DNA from: a virus | Taxonomy: Duplodnaviria > Caudoviricetes | DNA: 25,672 bases | Direction: 5' to 3' (one strand) | Virus record (IMG/VR): IMGVR_UViG_3300018080_000546 | Coordinates: 1 to 25,672 of that record | Shown here: piece after piece, positions 110-9,385 of the stretch | Layout: each line of letters starts with the position of its first letter | How positions within the stretch are numbered: the first letter of the stretch is position 1 | The notes under the pieces: generated by a model | What the model saw: only the letters and a program-made list of their open reading frames with translations | Databases searched by the model: none | Told to the model about the DNA's origin: nothing | Translations under genes and position numbers: made by a program

Positions 110-628
110 TCAGTCGTCAATGATCGCGTCGCCCTTGTACGCGTTGCTCAGGTCCGCGTCGCGCATGTCCGCGCCTCGCAGGTCGGCGCCTCGCAGGTCC
201 GCGTCGCGCATGTCCGCGCCTCGCAGGTCGGCGCCTCGCAGGTTGGCGTAGCGCAGGTCAGCGCCTCGCAGGTCGGCGCCTCGCAGGTTGGCGTAGCGCA
301 GGTCCGCGCCTCGCAGGTTAGCGCCTCGCAGGTTGGCGTAGCGCAGGTCAGCGCCTCGCAGGTCCGCGCCTCGCAGGTTAGCGTCGTTCAGGTCCGCGTC
401 GCGCAGGCACACGTCGCGCAGGCACACGCCGCGCAGGTCAGCGCCTCGCAGGTTAGCGTCGCGCAGGTTAGCGTCGCGCAGGTCGGTATCGCGCAGGTCG
501 GTATCGCGCAGGTCGGCCCGAGCACCAGCCTTGCCGCGCCTGGCCTGCCAGAGCTCGTGGTCTGCGATGATCTTCGCGAGGTCGTTGTCGTTGATCTGGC
601 GCCGTGCGGTAGTCGGATGCGTAGTCAT
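110..628 (-). CDS. Pentapeptide repeat protein (A[D/N]LRG repeats), 172 aa
   Basis: About 25 tandem ADLRG/ANLRG/ADLRY/ADMRD pentapeptides after the typical N-terminal 'LAKIIADHELW...GARADL'. Start moved from 958 to ATG 628 (GGAGGA RBS and promoter upstream). Confidence 0.9.
   Translation of the reverse strand: MTTHPTTARRQINDNDLAKIIADHELWQARRGKAGARADLRDTDLRDTDLRDANLRDANLRGADLRGVCLRDVCLRDADLNDANLRGADLRGADLRYANLRGANLRGADLRYANLRGADLRGADLRYANLRGADLRGADMRDADLRGADLRGADMRDADLSNAYKGDAIIDD
143..515. repeat. 15-nt coding tandem repeat (gcgcctcgcaggtcg-like) underlying the pentapeptide repeats
   Basis: Visible 15-nt periodicity, including a 45-nt duplication at 149-193/194-238. Confidence 0.9.
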
Positions 629-674
629 TGTCCTGTCCTCCGTTGTGCTGTGTCCGTCATCGCTTACACAATAT

Positions 675-703
675 AGTATAACTACGTCGCTGGTGATTGT
701 CAA
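675..703 (-). promoter_or_regulatory. Sigma70-type promoter, leftward
   Basis: Minus strand TTGACA (703-698), 17-nt spacer, TATACT (680-675). Confidence 0.8.
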
Positions 704-714
704 GAAGCGCCAGT

Positions 715-738
715 GAGAAATCTTCGCGATCTTTTCTC
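715..738. promoter_or_regulatory. Operator-like palindrome centred between the divergent promoters
   Basis: GAGAAA-tct-TCGCGA-tct-TTTCTC; dyad axis 726/727 is the exact midpoint between the two -35 boxes. Confidence 0.5.
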
Positions 739-749
739 GACAGCGCCAC

Positions 750-778
750 TTGACGGACAACGGTGACGGCGTTATCCT
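750..778 (+). promoter_or_regulatory. Sigma70-type promoter, rightward (drives the RecT / RAMP / array operon)
   Basis: TTGACG (750-755), 17-nt spacer, TATCCT (773-778). Confidence 0.7.
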
Positions 779-818
779 CATAATGTCAACGCGACACACA
801 CACGCACAGGAGGACAAC

Positions 819-1229
819 ATGAGCACGGACGCAACGTGGCACGATGAGACCGAGGCACTGTGGGAGCTGCAGGAGTGCATAACGCTGCTGGCATGTGGTG
901 CGAGGGCGCCGGTTAGGCACCTCGATAGCTGCCGCCCCATCGATGTCTTCATCGCCATGGTTGTTGACGGCGCTGCGCCAATCGGGCAGATGCATCACAC
1001 GCACACGTATCACACCGACGACGGCCAATATGTCGGCACGTACATGACGGTATACGGCAACTACGTGGTGGCAGCAATCCGGCGCACCGCCGACGGCAGC
1101 TATGAGTGGTTGCATCGTCCCGAGTATACCGACTACGGCATCAACGCCTATCGGCGGTACTCCGCCATCGAGAGCGAGCTGGTGGGCGACGTCTATCCCT
1201 ATGATTCGGCAGTAGGCACCGACGCCTGA
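819..1229 (+). CDS. Hypothetical phage protein, 136 aa
   Basis: ATG 819 preceded by AGGAGG RBS, downstream of the rightward promoter; no family recognised. Confidence 0.75.
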   Translation: MSTDATWHDETEALWELQECITLLACGARAPVRHLDSCRPIDVFIAMVVDGAAPIGQMHHTHTYHTDDGQYVGTYMTVYGNYVVAAIRRTADGSYEWLHRPEYTDYGINAYRRYSAIESELVGDVYPYDSAVGTDA

Positions 1230-1282: not shown

Positions 1283-2164
1283 GTGACACGCGACAAACGA
1301 ACGATCAACGAAGTCGTGCAGGAAAAGATCATTCGCGATGGCGATCTTTCCGGTTTGACGAATGACGAGCAGGTTGAATACTACAACTCTGTTTGCGACT
1401 TGCTTGGTATCGATCCGCTCACTCAGCCGTTCCAGTATTTGCGACTGAACGGGAAGTTGCAGCTCTACGCCATGCGTGCAGCGGCGGAACAGTTGCGACG
1501 GGTAAACAAGATCAGCCTCACGATAACAAGCCGTGAGATGATGTCCGAGGACCTGTATGTAGTAACAGCCCGTGCAACGGACGCAACCGGCAGAACAGAC
1601 GAGTCAACAGGGGCCGTGCCTCTCGATGGACTCAGAGGAGAGAAACTTGCCAACGCGTTGATGAAGGCGGAAACCAAGGCGAAACGTCGGGTTACGTTGT
1701 CAATCGCTGGTCTTGGCATGCTTGACGAGAACGAGGTCTCGTCCATTCCCGACGCACAAACAATCAGCGCAGAAGACCGAGAGACGGAAAACCTGCGCTC
1801 GAACATCAAGTATGAGATGAAGCGCATCGGGTGGAACGCGAAGGACATAACAAACTACATACGCGAGACGTATGATTTGCCGGAGGGCGAAGAGCTGGAC
1901 GCGGAGCACCTGGAAGACCTGCTCGACAGGGTTCGCGGCATGAGCCCGCCGGACAATGACGACCAGGAAGAAACGCCGCCGGAGAACATACCAACAGACA
2001 AGAAAGGGCTCGTCGCATGGTGCAAGGCCAAGGCGGAGGCCCTCGGGATGGACGACGACACACTTGACAGCGTCGCGACGCAGGAGTGCGGAGGATCGGT
2101 GGACGAACTTTCCGCAGAGGACCTGCTGTCGCTCGTTGACGTTTTGCAGCTTTACGAAGCGTAA
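1283..2164 (+). CDS. RecT/Red-beta-like single-strand DNA annealing protein with acidic C-terminal extension
   Basis: N-terminal 'GDLSGLT..EQVEYYNSVC..LGIDPL.QPFQY..LNGKLQLY' and 'NALMKAETKAKRRVTLSIAGLG' resemble phage RecT/Bet annealases; AAGGAG RBS, GTG start. Confidence 0.7.
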   Translation: MTRDKRTINEVVQEKIIRDGDLSGLTNDEQVEYYNSVCDLLGIDPLTQPFQYLRLNGKLQLYAMRAAAEQLRRVNKISLTITSREMMSEDLYVVTARATDATGRTDESTGAVPLDGLRGEKLANALMKAETKAKRRVTLSIAGLGMLDENEVSSIPDAQTISAEDRETENLRSNIKYEMKRIGWNAKDITNYIRETYDLPEGEELDAEHLEDLLDRVRGMSPPDNDDQEETPPENIPTDKKGLVAWCKAKAEALGMDDDTLDSVATQECGGSVDELSAEDLLSLVDVLQLYEA

Positions 2165-2170
2165 ACAGTC

Positions 2171-2190
2171 ATGGGGCCGCAAGGCCCCAT
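2171..2190 (+). other. Perfect hairpin with GNRA tetraloop upstream of the RAMP gene
   Basis: ATGGGGCC-GCAA-GGCCCCAT, followed by a short TT and the AAGGAG RBS. Confidence 0.6.
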
Positions 2191-2211
2191 TTCACCACAA
2201 GGAGAACGAAA

Positions 2212-2955
2212 ATGCCTGAGTTTACACTCCACCAACAGTGGGCGTACGCCCGCATTCGATTCATCGCGCCCATCCTCGGCACGGCACAGGCGAACGAAGA
2301 CGTCTACCGCAAGTATATTGGCGCAAAAGCACCTGACCCAGACGTTGCCGAGGCACAAGCGCAGGACCTCCCCGAGGGGGAAAGCCCGGAAGAACGCGGC
2401 TGGACAACGTTTCTGTGCGAAGGCGGACAGGGCGAAAACGAACAGTTTTTGCATCCGTATCTTCCGTCGTATCAGATCAAGGGCTATCTCAAGGGCAAAG
2501 GCAACGAAACGAAAAATCAGGCGAAGGTGCGGGCACTATCGTCGAAGATAGAGAAAAACGTCTACATTCACCCCGACAAGATTCATTTTCTGGACGACGA
2601 GCTGGACTCCGTGGAGTTTCCGGATGGTATAACCTCGCGCTCGCTGAATGCCAACACGCCGCAGGGCAAGCGCACCAGCATAGCCACCAGTCACCACATA
2701 GACAGGGGCCGCCACCTCGCGTTCTGGGTCTGTGTCAACATGGAGTTGCCCAAGGAGCTTGATTTACTGACAGTCAAAAGCCTGCTCAAGTTCGGTATAT
2801 TTTCTGGGCTGGGGCAATGGCGAAGCAGCGGTAAGGGCAGGTTCAAGCTGGAAAAGTTTCAGGAGGTTGACATGCCGGAAGACTGGCAGTCAATTATGGA
2901 ACTTGCTCGAATGGACGAACAGGTCCCCATGCTTGACGAAGGGAGCAAAGCATGA
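2212..2955 (+). CDS. Stand-alone Cas7/Csm3-like RAMP superfamily protein, 247 aa
   Basis: RAMP motifs: N-terminal strand 'ARIRFIAPILGT', 'PYLPSYQIKGYLK' (compare Csm3/Cmr4 PxIPGSSxKGxxR), thumb-like 'RSLNANTPQGKRTSIATS', and C-terminal glycine-rich loop 'GIFSGLGQWRSSGKGRF'. Confidence 0.8.
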   Translation: MPEFTLHQQWAYARIRFIAPILGTAQANEDVYRKYIGAKAPDPDVAEAQAQDLPEGESPEERGWTTFLCEGGQGENEQFLHPYLPSYQIKGYLKGKGNETKNQAKVRALSSKIEKNVYIHPDKIHFLDDELDSVEFPDGITSRSLNANTPQGKRTSIATSHHIDRGRHLAFWVCVNMELPKELDLLTVKSLLKFGIFSGLGQWRSSGKGRFKLEKFQEVDMPEDWQSIMELARMDEQVPMLDEGSKA

Positions 2956-3047
2956 ATGACAACATACCAACCGCACGGTGTGACGAACTGTCCGTCACCA
3001 CACGCAAGGTAACGGGATGATTGACGCGTTGTTGCCAAGAGAAGAAA

Positions 3048-3488
3048 CGCGACGGCGTGGCAGGGAGGCGCTGTGCTAAGCGTCGATTGAGCAAAGGCAA
3101 TGCGTCGTAACGCAAAGCAACGGCATCGAGGCGTGCGGCTCTATGAAGCGACGGCGGTGCGTCGTAAAGCGGAGCAACGGCGTGGCTCATCGGGGCATTG
3201 TCGGCAACGAGACGCAAAGCAACGGCACAGTATTGACACGATGCGAACTGACACGCGAGGCAACGGACTAGCAAGGTGGTGCCCAGAGCGGCAACGGCAA
3301 GGCATCGCGCCCGCTATGATCTGCAACGGCAAGGCATCGCAACGCAACGCAACGGCCAGGTAAGGCGGCGCATAGATCGGCAACGGCCAGGTAAAGCGTC
3401 CGCGATGATCTGCAACGGCATAGTATAGTATCGCAGTGCGACACGATGCAACGGCATCGCAATGCGGCACTCCGATTAGCAAAGGCAA
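3048..3488 (+). ncRNA. Non-CRISPR repeat array with 5-nt periodicity; candidate guide-RNA array for the adjacent RAMP protein
   Basis: Anchor GC(A/G)A(C/A)GG(C) at 3049, 3091, 3117, 3148, 3174, 3219, 3260, 3291, 3323, 3349, 3380, 3412, 3448, 3479; intervening sequence parses into N-G-H-N-N pentamers. The repeat is seen directly; RNA function is inferred. Confidence 0.75.
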
Positions 3489-3490
3489 GA

Positions 3491-3525
3491 GAAGTGCCCC
3501 GGGCTACATTGGCGCGGGGCACTTC
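3491..3525. terminator. Probable bidirectional terminator between the array transcript and the convergent lysis operon
   Basis: 11-bp perfect stem GAAGTGCCCCG / CGGGGCACTTC right after the last array anchor and just beyond the holin stop (3528). Confidence 0.7.
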
Positions 3526-3527
3526 AT

Positions 3528-4049
3528 TTATCGGTTGTCACCACCGAGCACGCTTCGGGCAGTGCCGGTTACCTGCTCCACCATGCCGCCAACGCCCGCG
3601 AGCCCTCTGATCTTCTCCGCTGTCCTCGCGCCGGTATAAATACCATACAGGCCGCCAACAAGCCAGTGCACGGCATCGGGCACGCCAACTGGTTCAATAG
3701 CGATAAGCCCGAACGAATGAAGTATCGGTATTATACCGTAGTTTGTTGCATAAATAACAGCGCATACATACAACATCGTAGGGCGCGCACGACCGGTATA
3801 CTTGTCGCCGGACCCCTGAGCCAACTTCTCGTATTCCAGCGCTCTGTCATTTACCGAGTCGGCGAACTCCATGGCGCGAGATTCAGCATCGGAAAACATC
3901 TTGTACGTTTCGTTCGCGAGGCGCATTTTTACCGCGTCAAGCTGACCTCGCTCTTCGTCAGACGTGTGCAGGTCGTCCACGATGCCAGTTATTTGACCGA
4001 CGAATCCAGTTACTCCACCGTCGCCGAACAAGTCACTAAACCAACTCAT
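3528..4049 (-). CDS. Holin of 3TM (GTA_holin_3TM-like) family
   Basis: 'IVDDLHTSDEER', 'DKYTGRARPTMLY', two C-terminal hydrophobic helices ending 'GLYGIYTGARTAEK'; adjacent to the endolysin. Confidence 0.75.
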   Translation of the reverse strand: MSWFSDLFGDGGVTGFVGQITGIVDDLHTSDEERGQLDAVKMRLANETYKMFSDAESRAMEFADSVNDRALEYEKLAQGSGDKYTGRARPTMLYVCAVIYATNYGIIPILHSFGLIAIEPVGVPDAVHWLVGGLYGIYTGARTAEKIRGLAGVGGMVEQVTGTARSVLGGDNR

Positions 4050-5786: not shown

Positions 5787-6872
5787 TTAGTTCTCCTCGC
5801 TTGGCGGTATTGCAGCCGTGCCAAACGCCGGTTGTGCGGCATCGTATGCCGACGTAGCGTCATAGGTGGTTCCGTCTACACCATCAGGTATTGTATAGTC
5901 AAAGCCTTCGCCATCCACTGCTCTTGCAAGGTTCTCTGTTGTAAGCCACTGCGCAATAAGCCCCGTTGGAGAGTCGAGCAAGGCAGTGTCTTTGTTGTCT
6001 GATATTTCAGAAAGCGTCCGAACGTCTGACCAAAGGCGAACCATTGTGATCCGCGAAGTAACTGGACTACTGCCAATCGTTATGTCGTCACCAGCAAACC
6101 CGAACGTTTCGCCAGCGCCATTGTCGGATGATCCGGCAAGCGCACCGTCAACATAAAACTTTAATTGTCCAGTGCTATTTGCTCCAGCGTCTGGGTCTAC
6201 GGTAACCGCATAGTGGTGCCACTCGTCGTCATCTACACCGCTATCAACATTTGCAATGAGACCGTTATTGTCGTAGAACTCGACTTGTCCTGTTACAGCG
6301 CCAATAATACTTATAGTTGTTGGCGAAGTTTTTGTCCCACCGATATACAAAGCACCGGCGAATGCTAGGCCAGTTCTTGTTCCCCAATATGCCCACATTT
6401 CAACGGTAAATGTTGTGCTGCTGTCGAAAAGCGTTCCTGTCGGCAATGTAAGTTCATCACCGCTCACAATTTCAGCGTAATTTGTCGAATAAGTGCGCCA
6501 CAAACCAGTTCCCTGTATCTCAACTGACATGGAAGTAATTCCTTTGATCGGAGCCTCCATGCTTAGTGACGTGACATATCCGGTCCCCTGCCATGCGGCG
6601 TCTGATATGTTGGCAGCGATAATTACCGATACGCTGTTGCGTTCACGCGCAGCGGTCTCAAGCGCAGCTTGCCCGGTGTCGTCTGCCACCAACAGGTGAT
6701 CGGCAGTAACCGTCCACGTGCGATACTCTGGCAGATATGTTTCCCACCTGGTAGAACTTTTGACTGTCGAGTCTGCGGTTGCTTCGTCCATTGAAATTTC
6801 GCAGCCTGTTTGGCTGCCTACAACCGTGCCCCCGACGCTTACAAGCACGTCAGCGCCGAAAATAACACTCAT
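5787..6872 (-). CDS. Tail-tube-domain protein fused to a LamG/concanavalin A-like lectin domain
   Basis: N-terminal ~125 aa is paralogous to the tail tube gene at 13060-13515. C-terminal part has LamG motifs 'FTVEMW', 'DDEWHHYAVTVD', 'LKFYVDG', 'VRLWSDVRTLSEI'. Start ATG 6872 by ATGA overlap and GGAGG RBS. Confidence 0.8.
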   Translation of the reverse strand: MSVIFGADVLVSVGGTVVGSQTGCEISMDEATADSTVKSSTRWETYLPEYRTWTVTADHLLVADDTGQAALETAARERNSVSVIIAANISDAAWQGTGYVTSLSMEAPIKGITSMSVEIQGTGLWRTYSTNYAEIVSGDELTLPTGTLFDSSTTFTVEMWAYWGTRTGLAFAGALYIGGTKTSPTTISIIGAVTGQVEFYDNNGLIANVDSGVDDDEWHHYAVTVDPDAGANSTGQLKFYVDGALAGSSDNGAGETFGFAGDDITIGSSPVTSRITMVRLWSDVRTLSEISDNKDTALLDSPTGLIAQWLTTENLARAVDGEGFDYTIPDGVDGTTYDATSAYDAAQPAFGTAAIPPSEEN

Positions 6873-9385
6873 GATGACCTCCACGTATTGAGCCACTCGC
6901 CAACAGCTGGTCCAGTGGCGCAAGTGACGCTATATTGCAGTTCCCCGTTTGCCGGATTTATCATGTCCACAAACTCAACACTCGTTATGAGATAGTTGTC
7001 TGCGGACAACCCTAGTGCAGCGTCGGTAATTGCTATCTGTTGACCGGGGACAAGACCAGCGCGCCAGCAACGGAACGTTATCTCGTCAGTAAACACACCG
7101 TAACGGTTCGCTATAGGCGTTGCTTTTGCCAGCGCTTCAGTTGCCGTCAGCGACTCGTCAAACGTGATGCGTGACTCATACCTCCCACTGGCTATACCGT
7201 CGCTGTCAGGGTCTTCCAGCGCCTGCATATCGGCAATGGTTTCGTATGCCGCTCCACTCACATCTCTATATGATGTAGTTTCATCAAGCCACGTATACTG
7301 TATCCTGTAGCCCTGCTGATAAGTAGACGCTGTCGGATCGAGGTTGTCAGTATATTCACCAAGCCATATTCGATTATCACCCGTGCGATACACCAGCTCG
7401 TGCGGGGCTATTACGTTCACTTTTTGGTTCGTCGCCAGCGCGCCTTGATAGACATTGGTGATGGTTCTGTATGGACTGTCTGTATACGCTGATTGACCAT
7501 TTGTAAGAACAACAACTTCTGATTGAGCGGCGTCTGTGTCTATGTCTGTTCCAACGATAGTTACCGCCTCATCCTTCCAGCGCATTGACGAAAGGGTGAT
7601 GTCTTGAGATGATGAATAACCGCCAACGTATAGCTCGGTAACAGTTGGCCATGAACCGTCTACGTAGACCGTGCTATCGTCGGTTAGTTTGATAAAGTCA
7701 TACTGCACGTTCGAGTCATCATCGAGGCCCTTGACGCCAACGTATACCTCGCCATAGTCAGCCGCTGGTGTGATAGATAGATACTTCGATGTTGCATCTG
7801 TGTCGCTTACATCATATATGCCAATGTTTCCAGCATCTGCGAACGTCGCGATTGTTGTCGCGCCCCATGTTACTGTAACTGTCCCAGCCGGAGCAGAATC
7901 AATTACGACGGCAAATATCACGTCCCATGTAGCAACACTAAGCGTTGTATAGGTTGTCCCATCAAGCGTTTCGCTAGCAGTGTCAACGCCACTCGTTGTT
8001 CCATCCTTGACGCCGTATATAGTTACGCTTTGCGTAGTATCGCCAGCGTCGTCGCTCACAATGCCGACCTCGCCGGTAGACTGTGTAATATTCGCCCCGG
8101 CAACATCCGCTTCGCGCTCTGTTACGTCCGTATCCTGTGGCTCGACCAACAGGCGCGTATACATGTTTCCAGACGCTCTTACGCTGACGCCAGCTGTCAA
8201 ATCAGACGTGCTAGCGGCGAACGTGCATACGGTAGTTCCGCCTCCACCATCTGGCGCGGTAACCGTTACGTTGCCAGTTGGAGATTCCGATATTTCAACC
8301 GCCGTGATGTAGTACCACGTAGGATCCACCAGAACATCTGTTACCTCACTGTCATTATTGAGAGCGAGCGTTCTTGTGAAGTAATCTGTGCCGCCACTGA
8401 CTGCATATCCATAAAAAGTTACTGTCTTGCTTGTGCCTTCTGCGGCGCTGTCGCTCTGAATGCTCACATTGCCGCTGGCGCTCGGCTGCCCGAGGCCTTC
8501 GCCAGTCACGTTGAGCGCAATAGTTCTGCCGTCGGTGGCGCTTGCTTCGCGAGCGTACCGCTCCTCATATGGAAGCGTTGTGTCGTAAACCGCAGTCACG
8601 CCCAACAGTGTGTTGATGGGGTATGTCAGGTCCCATGAGCGCGGAGTTTCGCCAGTATACTCTAGCTCAATAAGTTCATATGTAAATGTTTGTATTCTGT
8701 CGTATGTGTAGTAGACCCTGTTCGCGAAGTTCTTGCGTCCCTGACGCCGCGCTACGTCCTGCACTGGATACGTGCCGTCAACGTCCCAAGGCGAAGACGT
8801 CCCAGAAGTGCTTTGGATCAAAAGTTGGCGGTCTGGCGTGATCCTCCAGTAACACCCGATCTCATCAGCTATGGCGTCCAAAACTGATCGCATAGTGACA
8901 TAGTCGAGTTCGAGGTCTTCCAGCGTTGTTGATCCGCTCGCCAGCGGATACGTCGGCGTGATCTGTATAGCGCCAATCTGAGACGATGGCAGGATGGGGT
9001 CATATGTGGAGGGGGTATACCAGATGCCCTCGTCATCAAGATATGTCGTAACGAGGTCTGCGATAACTTGATCTACCGTCTGGCCTGTATACGTTTCATT
9101 TACCAGTCTTCGGTCTGTTATCTGGTGCAGATCAGCGCATTCAACAACCTGTTCCAGCCGCGTAAGGCCCTGCACGACTGCTTTTGACCGTATAGATTCA
9201 ACAAAGCCTATGAAGATATTGCCCCTGTCAACAAACAGGCGGACAGGGTCTCCTATATCTATTGAGACGCTGGCCGCACGAGTCGCAAACGACAGACGCA
9301 TGCGCCCCTGTAGCGATATACCGCCACGCAACGATCCGGGACGTATCTTCGATGCTATGTCAGTTCCGCCGACATAAAGATTCAC
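6869..9385 (-). CDS. Large minor tail / tail-tip (hub-like) protein, 838 aa
   Basis: Downstream of the tape measure; hub-like N-terminus ('IFIGFVESI', 'VLDAIADEIGCYWRITPDRQL') and C-terminus ('GLVPGQQIAI...YLITSV'); beta-rich repeated insert. Confidence 0.75.
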   Translation of the reverse strand: MNLYVGGTDIASKIRPGSLRGGISLQGRMRLSFATRAASVSIDIGDPVRLFVDRGNIFIGFVESIRSKAVVQGLTRLEQVVECADLHQITDRRLVNETYTGQTVDQVIADLVTTYLDDEGIWYTPSTYDPILPSSQIGAIQITPTYPLASGSTTLEDLELDYVTMRSVLDAIADEIGCYWRITPDRQLLIQSTSGTSSPWDVDGTYPVQDVARRQGRKNFANRVYYTYDRIQTFTYELIELEYTGETPRSWDLTYPINTLLGVTAVYDTTLPYEERYAREASATDGRTIALNVTGEGLGQPSASGNVSIQSDSAAEGTSKTVTFYGYAVSGGTDYFTRTLALNNDSEVTDVLVDPTWYYITAVEISESPTGNVTVTAPDGGGGTTVCTFAASTSDLTAGVSVRASGNMYTRLLVEPQDTDVTEREADVAGANITQSTGEVGIVSDDAGDTTQSVTIYGVKDGTTSGVDTASETLDGTTYTTLSVATWDVIFAVVIDSAPAGTVTVTWGATTIATFADAGNIGIYDVSDTDATSKYLSITPAADYGEVYVGVKGLDDDSNVQYDFIKLTDDSTVYVDGSWPTVTELYVGGYSSSQDITLSSMRWKDEAVTIVGTDIDTDAAQSEVVVLTNGQSAYTDSPYRTITNVYQGALATNQKVNVIAPHELVYRTGDNRIWLGEYTDNLDPTASTYQQGYRIQYTWLDETTSYRDVSGAAYETIADMQALEDPDSDGIASGRYESRITFDESLTATEALAKATPIANRYGVFTDEITFRCWRAGLVPGQQIAITDAALGLSADNYLITSVEFVDMINPANGELQYSVTCATGPAVGEWLNTWRSS

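What the first reader, a model, noticed from the sequence alone, without database searches (positions are those of the whole stretch)
3048..3488. Array grammar: N-G-H-N-N pentamers punctuated by an NGCAAC hexamer, giving 5n+1 spacing
The 14 anchors are spaced 42, 26, 31, 26, 45, 41, 31, 32, 26, 31, 32, 36, 31 nt. Nine of the 13 spacings are exactly 5n+1 and the other four are one base off. Each unit is 4-7 pentamers plus one hexamer. Examples: 3354 ggcca ggtaa ggcgg cgcat agatc ggcaac; 3417 ggcat agtat agtat cgcag tgcga cacga tgcaac; 3224 ggcac agtat tgaca cgatg cgaac tgaca cgcga ggcaac. By my hand parse (allowing four 1-nt indels), 65 of 69 pentamers have G at position 2, and position 3 is C, T or A but never G, while positions 1, 4 and 5 vary. 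A period of 5 does not fit codon structure, and variation confined to fixed phases is unlike a decaying microsatellite. Inference: an interleaved scaffold/information code, with the hexamer acting as a processing site or register reset that yields about 13 guides of 26-45 nt.
Basis: seen in the sequence. Interest (0 to 1): 0.9.

Follow-up and report, generated by a model that had tools for sequence, protein, structure and literature searches.

The report
Staggered phage VIPR guide array
This gene-free stretch of a phage genome has a real five-base rhythm that slips by one base every 26-45 bases and sits next to a gene for a CRISPR-related protein, so it is likely a stacked set of short guide RNAs of the VIPR DNA-silencing system described in 2026, although no target could be found.

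Summary
The grammar is real: lag-5 autocorrelation z 6.3, 9 of 13 anchor spacings 5n+1, G at pentamer position 2 in 66 of 70. The array lies 92 nt downstream of a stand-alone RAMP-fold gene (2212-2955) that aligns over 175 columns with SUSP1 Vipr. The same grammar flanks 237 of 255 homologue loci (123 of 135 gene clusters) and 0 of 144 control windows. Close strains gain or swap whole units while the gene changes almost only at third codon positions. This fits the published 'staggered' VIPR arrays with non-GGY repeats (bioRxiv 10.64898/2026.04.26.720920, fig. S18), and this scan found that layout before on other DNA. It is a new member of a known kind. One inference is new: the read pair may be positions 5+1 rather than 4+5. 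Position 4 is more constrained than position 1 in 75 of 98 loci, and SUSP1's G2-binding R138 aligns with Glu/Asp in this clade. No target was found in either register; one lead failed an independent test. Processing at the hexamer is untested.

The parts
2212..2955 (+). Vipr-like gene: stand-alone 247-aa RAMP-fold protein with thumb hairpin and G-loop (GLGQWR), the predicted guide-binding subunit
   Evidence: AlphaFold model pLDDT 89; best solved fold Csm3 Z 13.8, rmsd 3.8, 167 aligned; profile-profile match to SUSP1 Vipr, probability 86.8, E 4.3e-6, 175 columns; no Pfam or PHROG family
3048..3488 (+). Staggered pentamer array: 14 anchors, 13 units of 26-45 nt (5-8 modules in the nine exact units), G fixed every fifth base, one extra base per junction; predicted vrRNA precursor
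   Evidence: same grammar beside 237 of 255 homologue loci; unit gain and replacement in close strains
3003..3047 (+). Ragged 5' edge: partly in-phase pentamers and one hexamer-like site at 3008; possibly a decayed first unit (inferred)
   Evidence: sequence; the automatic parse starts at 3033
3491..3525 (+). Strong hairpin closing the array, just before the stop of the convergent holin gene; likely terminator or 3' cap of the precursor
   Evidence: -30.4 kcal/mol, z -6.3, 0 of 200 shuffles; not called by the T-tail terminator scan
2171..2190 (+). Hairpin with GCAA loop upstream of the Vipr-like gene; role unknown
   Evidence: z -3.3, 1 of 200 shuffles
1283..2164 (+). Context, probably not part of the system: weakly RecT-like gene upstream
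   Evidence: phrog_2780 E 0.024; among the 255 loci, homologues only in this phage's own records
3528..4049 (-). Context: holin at the end of the convergent virion and lysis operon of a tailed phage
   Evidence: PF11351 E 1.3e-13; terminase, portal, major head and tape measure genes further along

Best explanation
The array sits beside a stand-alone RAMP-fold gene of a tailed phage and is likely the guide-RNA array of a VIPR system of the staggered kind, predicted to be transcribed with that gene and coated by one protein copy per five bases, so that two bases per module would pair with double-stranded DNA and silence it. Shown: the grammar, the protein fold and its homology to SUSP1 Vipr, the family-wide coupling of gene and array, and whole-unit turnover between strains. 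Inferred from the published mechanism: transcription, filament assembly, the one-base-skip pairing rule and repression of competing phages. Each one-base slip breaks the five-base register and so likely marks where one guide unit ends and the next begins; a unit of GG plus n pentamers that shares one G with its neighbour gives exactly 5n+1. Whether the RNA is cut there is unknown. I put about 55% on the hidden trimer being G-(C/A/T)-N with positions 5+1 read, and 45% on N-G-H with positions 4+5 read.
For: Grammar. Fold: all top solved matches are CRISPR RAMPs; best viral model is a phage RAMP-superfamily protein, E 1e-17. Match to SUSP1 Vipr over 175 columns, with G-loop D177/W178/R179 aligning to Q202/W203/R204. 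No other cas gene was seen among the 35 ORFs scanned against PHROGs, and no CRISPR-like repeat-spacer array in the window. Coupling: array beside 237 of 255 loci and 123 of 135 gene clusters, against 0 of 144 control windows; 913 of 1242 anchor spacings are 5n+1, with peaks at 26, 31, 36 and 41. Strains: one contig carries a 30-letter unit-like insertion behind 3290, and another has 21 other letters and 9 gaps within 3173-3449; 11 of the 12 listed differences in the gene fall on third codon positions (my arithmetic; 4 rows not shown). Of 11 ungapped changes at 3337-3368 none hits the fixed G. Published match: staggered arrays with 1-nt overlap and YNNNG/NNNNG repeats.
Against: No target was found. 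Unit and two-unit searches in 3.05 Mb of related phage DNA gave counts like shuffled guides for every code. Five exact 16-base seeds in viral contigs gave 16, 1, 15, 13 and 28 stretches with no confirmed support (107/108). A 24-base guide of a gut relative matched 0 of 401 genomes in either register. The units carry no clear imprint of coding-sequence targets, although simulated coding targets give z 12-20. Units hold only 10-16 variable bases, against 9-16 repeats (18-32 bases) in characterised vrRNAs. There is no vap gene and no per-unit 3' tail. The homology to SUSP1 Vipr is distant (21% identity).
Confidence: 0.88

Rival explanations
1. Same system, but junctions are register resets in one long uncut RNA, and neighbouring units act together, either read through as one long guide or cooperatively. 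This would solve the problem that single units are too short to be unique.
For: Units carry only 10-16 variable bases; no per-unit tail or ribozyme (no Rfam match; three single units fold no better than shuffles); the staggered layout was not among those the paper confirmed by RNA sequencing.
Against: Two-unit read-through with 0-3 bases at the junction gave no excess of matches in 3.05 Mb (tested in the 4+5 register only). Strains swap units singly, which fits independent modules.
Confidence: 0.25
2. The array is a non-guiding RNA or DNA scaffold, such as a decoy or storage site for the RAMP protein or a sponge for host Cas subunits, and its variable bases drift neutrally.
For: No target; no coding-target imprint; substitution rates among homologous units are similar at positions 1, 3, 4 and 5 (0.09-0.13); some units are internally repetitive.
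Against: 506 different internal pentamers among 7544, and near-uniform bases at the free positions, are more diversity than a decoy needs; the homologous SUSP1 system is a proven guide system; targets may simply be unsampled.
Confidence: 0.08
3. The tract is a protein-coding repeat or a decaying microsatellite.
For: Three ORFs of 87-126 aa overlap it. The pentapeptide-repeat gene at 110-958 gives equally high lag-5 autocorrelation, so lag 5 alone does not exclude coding DNA.
Against: Period-3 power is below shuffles; the ORFs hit no family; 64 of 168 family arrays have a fully open frame against 54 expected from block shuffles; one strain contig has a net 2-base loss at 3307-3322 (a single contig, depth 7.6); the grammar stays beside homologues only 30-40% identical.
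Confidence: 0.03

Closest known systems
VIPR systems with staggered vrRNA arrays and non-canonical YNNNG/NNNNG repeats (bioRxiv 10.64898/2026.04.26.720920, Results, Methods, legends of figs S17 and S18)
   Same: Phage-encoded stand-alone RAMP next to a non-coding pentamer array; one conserved G per pentamer; units abutting with a one-base shift, which a 1-nt overlap reproduces as 5n+1.
   Different: The figures could not be seen, so which of the seven types this is, and whether its unit length and junction motif are shown there, is open. The text gives no target or register for staggered arrays.
Type II VIPR (SUSP1, P. fulva prophage; same paper and bioRxiv 10.64898/2026.04.26.720927)
   Same: Homologous protein; G-loop W and R kept; K33 aligns with K34; five-base period.
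   Different: GGY only at unit starts; 5-8 modules per exact unit instead of 9-16; no spacers and no pseudoknot tail per guide; no vap gene; G1 contact D177 aligns with invariant Q202, and G2 contact R138 aligns with Glu/Asp in 109 of 110 clade proteins (His in this one).
Divergent VIPR arrays with alternative trimers such as GAC/NN, CAC/NN, WGT/NN, TGH/NN (bioRxiv 10.64898/2026.10.21.760802, passages)
   Same: Non-GGY fixed trimers beside Vipr-like folds are reported.
   Different: In the passages seen, motifs repeat in unbroken runs; one-base slips and a G-H-N trimer are not mentioned.
Class 1 CRISPR backbone subunits (Csm3, type VII Cas7)
   Same: Same RAMP fold.
   Different: No cas operon or repeat-spacer array seen in the window; five-base modules rather than contiguous spacers.

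Membership tests
VIPR (broad sense, staggered arrays) | Small RAMP-fold protein with thumb and G-loop outside a CRISPR locus, homologous to Vipr | tested here: met
   no other cas gene among 35 ORFs scanned
VIPR (broad sense, staggered arrays) | Encoded by a phage or provirus | tested here: met
   terminase, portal, major head, tape measure, holin and endolysin in the window
VIPR (broad sense, staggered arrays) | Adjacent non-coding tandem pentamer tract with GGY/NN or a related consensus (NNNGG, YNNNG, NNNNG) | tested here: met
   one fixed G per pentamer, next base C/A/T; coupled to the gene in 237 of 255 loci
VIPR (broad sense, staggered arrays) | Staggered layout: units abut with a 1-nt overlap | tested here: met
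   9 of 13 spacings here and 913 of 1242 in relatives are 5n+1; matched to the fig. S18 legend only
VIPR (broad sense, staggered arrays) | Variable dinucleotides spell a DNA target by the one-base-skip rule | tested here: inconclusive
   no excess over shuffled guides; seeds unconfirmed; 0 of 401 genomes; units short, hosts unknown, targets may be unsampled
VIPR (broad sense, staggered arrays) | Array is transcribed and its RNA binds the protein | not testable with these tools
   needs RNA data or a pull-down
Type II VIPR (SUSP1-like) | 9-16 strict GGY/NN repeats per guide | tested here: not met
   5-8 modules in the exact units; position 1 is G in 14 of 45
Type II VIPR (SUSP1-like) | Conserved structured 3' tail on each guide | tested here: not met
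   units abut with no tail; one terminal hairpin here, and 3' flanks fold strongly in only 22 of 187 family arrays
Type II VIPR (SUSP1-like) | vap accessory gene in the operon | tested here: not met
   array and convergent holin follow directly; the two upstream genes have no homologue beside other clade members; other strains carry an uncharacterised insert upstream
CRISPR-Cas class 1 | Repeat-spacer array and multi-gene cas operon | tested here: not met
   Csm4 profile score 20.7 against a cut-off of 55; window is a 25.7-kb fragment

The most novel reading that the evidence does not exclude
This large clade (thousands of homologues) is a minimal one-gene VIPR with a shifted code. A phage would then pack about 13 tail-less guides of 10-16 bases into 440 nt and swap them unit by unit.
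Probability: 0.4. Interest if true: 0.65.

Novelty: new member of a known kind. Interest (0 to 1): 0.38.

Why it matters
It confirms and extends the least-characterised VIPR layout, giving unit lengths, junction motif and strain-level unit turnover for a very large clade in gut, sediment and seawater phages. It poses two testable questions that the published text does not answer: which two bases of a non-GGY pentamer are read, and how such short tail-less units are released and made specific. If the shifted register is right, target searches that assume the GGY register would miss this clade's targets, and the system would be a compact, naturally multiplexed RNA-guided DNA binder.

Tried and rejected
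Target searches. (1) Single units against 233 related loci (3.05 Mb, arrays masked). Positions 4+5 with skip 1 gave 18 exact hits of 690 guides against 17 and 20 shuffled; triplets 4-5-1 with skip 0 gave 8 of 1364 against 5 and 5; other skips were alike. Positions 5+1 with skip 1, seven-module units, gave 10 exact against 7, 5 and 7. (2) Read-through over 1882 unit pairs, 4+5 register: no excess. (3) Five exact 16-base seeds in viral contigs. Unit 3224 in the 4+5 register gave 16 stretches with no support from other units. In the 5+1 register it gave 13 stretches; three of them (L290, L296, L299, one phage) also fitted other units (summed mismatches 11 against 16.7 +/- 1.7 in 100 loci, one unrelated locus tying; 1 of 400 shuffles). 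On 38 kb of new sequence from that phage p was 0.42 (one half 0.05, the other 0.98), so the lead was rejected. Gut units gave 1 stretch (not examined further), 15 with no extension, and 28. Six of the 28 are related 17-kb gut phages, but the ninth pair mismatched, the skip fell on codon position 2 and other units gave no support. (4) 0 of 401 genomes of one candidate host family, both registers, 3 mismatches; the true host is unknown. (5) No convincing self-target in the window.

Coding-target imprint: z 0.0 for 4+5 and z 4.3 for 5+1 with skip 1 (the script stopped before its last two codes). The 5+1 value was 3.3-3.5 with stratified shuffles and fell to 0.8 after dropping units with repeated pentamers (1338 of 1703 kept), so it is not used as support.

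Other: no RNA holder listed. No Rfam match. The whole array folds no better than shuffles (z -1.4). No promoter excess. Two of eight runs laid gave no contig. The first structure model was weak (pLDDT 67) and was replaced. The solved-structure fold libraries listed no Vipr entry, so no direct structural superposition on Vipr was made.

Full report
Observation. The 14 anchors and their spacings are as given, and 9 of 13 are 5n+1 (p 1.7e-4). In the nine exact units 42 of 45 pentamers have G at position 2 and none has G at position 3; with one indel in each irregular unit the count is 66 of 70. Against 1000 dinucleotide shuffles the lag-5 autocorrelation has z 6.3, spectral power peaks at period 5.17-5.25 (z 16-19), and period 3 is below background. 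Lag 5 alone would not have been enough, since the pentapeptide-repeat gene at 110-958 scores as high. The regular one-base slip is what sets the array apart.

Setting. The window is part of a tailed-phage genome, with terminase, portal, head, tape measure and lysis genes on the minus strand. The array lies on the plus strand between a 247-aa ORF (2212-2955) and a strong hairpin (3491-3525, z -6.3) that precedes the convergent holin.

The partner protein. The ORF has no Pfam or PHROG family and only sub-threshold Csm4 scores. A profile of three sequences found 7964 relatives among 7999 scored candidates, and 1012 cluster representatives pass E 0.001. A model from a 67-sequence alignment (pLDDT 89) matches Csm3 at Z 13.8, and the top 27 rows are all CRISPR effector chains or complexes. 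The profile reaches the solved SUSP1 Vipr weakly in a whole-PDB search (E 0.015). In a direct profile comparison it matches over 175 columns (probability 86.8, E 4.3e-6, 21% identity).

Coupling of gene and array. I fetched homologue loci from viral, metagenome and genome collections (each call returns at most its best 80, and the set is redundant and includes four records of this phage). A parser for this grammar found an array beside 237 of 255 loci and in 0 of 144 control windows; after clustering, 123 of 135 gene clusters carry one, several of the misses being short contigs. Arrays lie downstream only in 190 loci, upstream only in 35 and on both sides in 12; the median is 407 nt with 13 junctions. 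With a strict anchor pattern on the first 175 loci, 913 of 1242 spacings are 5n+1, peaking at 26, 31, 36 and 41. In internal pentamers of 680 units the information content is 0.02, 1.49, 0.38, 0.08 and 0.02 bits at positions 1-5.

Variation between strains. A second assembly of this phage differs at 15 of 6656 positions, 4 of them in the array. Contigs from sediment and seawater runs show a 30-letter unit-like insertion behind 3290 and replaced units between 3296 and 3384, while 11 of 12 listed differences in the gene are at third codon positions (contigs only, depth 4-8). Of 11 ungapped changes at 3337-3368, five are at position 5, three at position 1, two at position 4, one at position 3 and none at the fixed G.

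What is known. I read the whole text of bioRxiv 10.64898/2026.04.26.720920 with its supplementary legends and searched its supplement PDF; figures and data files were not visible and bear on type assignment. It describes staggered arrays in which vrRNAs overlap by one base, and alternative NNNGG, YNNNG and NNNNG repeats. A unit of GG plus n pentamers that shares one G with the next gives exactly 5n+1. Of the structure paper (10.64898/2026.04.26.720927) I read parts 1-2 of 6 and passages; of 10.64898/2026.10.15.759431 and 10.64898/2026.10.21.760802 passages only. In two literature searches the only listed VIPR paper with 'staggered' was the first one, and its text gives no targets or reading register for such arrays. 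Earlier notes of this scan report the same layout in other genomes; I had reached the reading before seeing them.

How it likely works. By homology, one protein copy would bind each five-base module, hide three bases and present two for gapped pairing with double-stranded DNA, repressing transcription. The one-base slip breaks the filament register and so delimits units. Transcription, processing and binding are all inferred.

Which two bases are read is open. Three lines point to positions 5+1. First, position 4 is more constrained than position 1 in 75 of 98 loci and than position 5 in 74 of 98 (loci are related, so the p values overstate). Second, SUSP1's two G1 contacts align with conserved polar residues (D177 with invariant Q202; H17 with T/S24 in the profile alignment but with a gap in the MAFFT alignment). 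Its G2 contact R138 aligns with Glu or Asp in 109 of 110 proteins, which would suit the C or A that follows the fixed G. Third, the 11 proteins with Arg at residue 159 have arrays with less A at that base (0.10 against about 0.34; possibly one clade). Against this, the window's own protein has His at 161, the alignment is distant, substitution rates among homologous units do not separate the positions, and the coding-frame signal for 5+1 (z 4.3) fell to 0.8 once repetitive units were dropped.

Targets. None was found; the searches are listed under Tried and rejected. The one lead, a phage matching several units in the 5+1 register, did not replicate on 38 kb of further sequence (p 0.42). The absence of a coding-sequence imprint, where simulated coding targets give z 12-20, counts against simple wobble-aligned gene targeting by most units. 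It leaves non-coding targets, diverged guides or another code open. With 10-16 variable bases per unit and unknown hosts these tests have limited reach, so the targeting criterion is inconclusive rather than failed.

Verdict. A real, non-coding, protein-coupled array; very likely a VIPR system of the published staggered kind and not a type II system. It is a new member of a known kind, interest 0.38. The shifted-register, tail-less short-guide reading has probability about 0.4 and would merit 0.65.

Noticed in passing
window 6287-6487: Ten of the 15 differences between the window and L001 cluster in 200 bases of the tail-tube/ConA-like gene (5787-6923, minus), suggesting a hypervariable receptor-binding patch; no template repeat was seen among the repeats listed.
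   Followed up: partly
window 2195-2196: Runs X2, X3 and X4 carry extra DNA just upstream of the Vipr-like gene (about 370 letters in one X4 contig); it could hold a small accessory gene absent from the window.
   Followed up: no
window 110-958 (minus): Pentapeptide-repeat protein gene with a 15-base period; it gives lag-5 autocorrelation as high as the array and is a ready false positive for VIPR screens.
   Followed up: yes
window 1283-2164: Weakly RecT-like gene directly upstream of the system; it could aid unit exchange between junction repeats, but it is not conserved beside other clade members.
   Followed up: partly
L029:6427 and related gut-phage loci: A 12-module unit without a slip is shared by eight loci; it is the best candidate in this set for decoding the register.
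   Followed up: partly
clade arrays, triplet of positions 4-5-1: TAG, TAA and TGA are under-used (0.63, 0.79, 0.81 of expectation) and TAT and TAC over-used; unexplained, and the frame-consistency test for triplets was negative.
   Followed up: partly
window 3328-3353: One unit is nearly a pure tandem of a five-base motif matching the junction, suggesting new units can arise by slippage of the junction.
   Followed up: no
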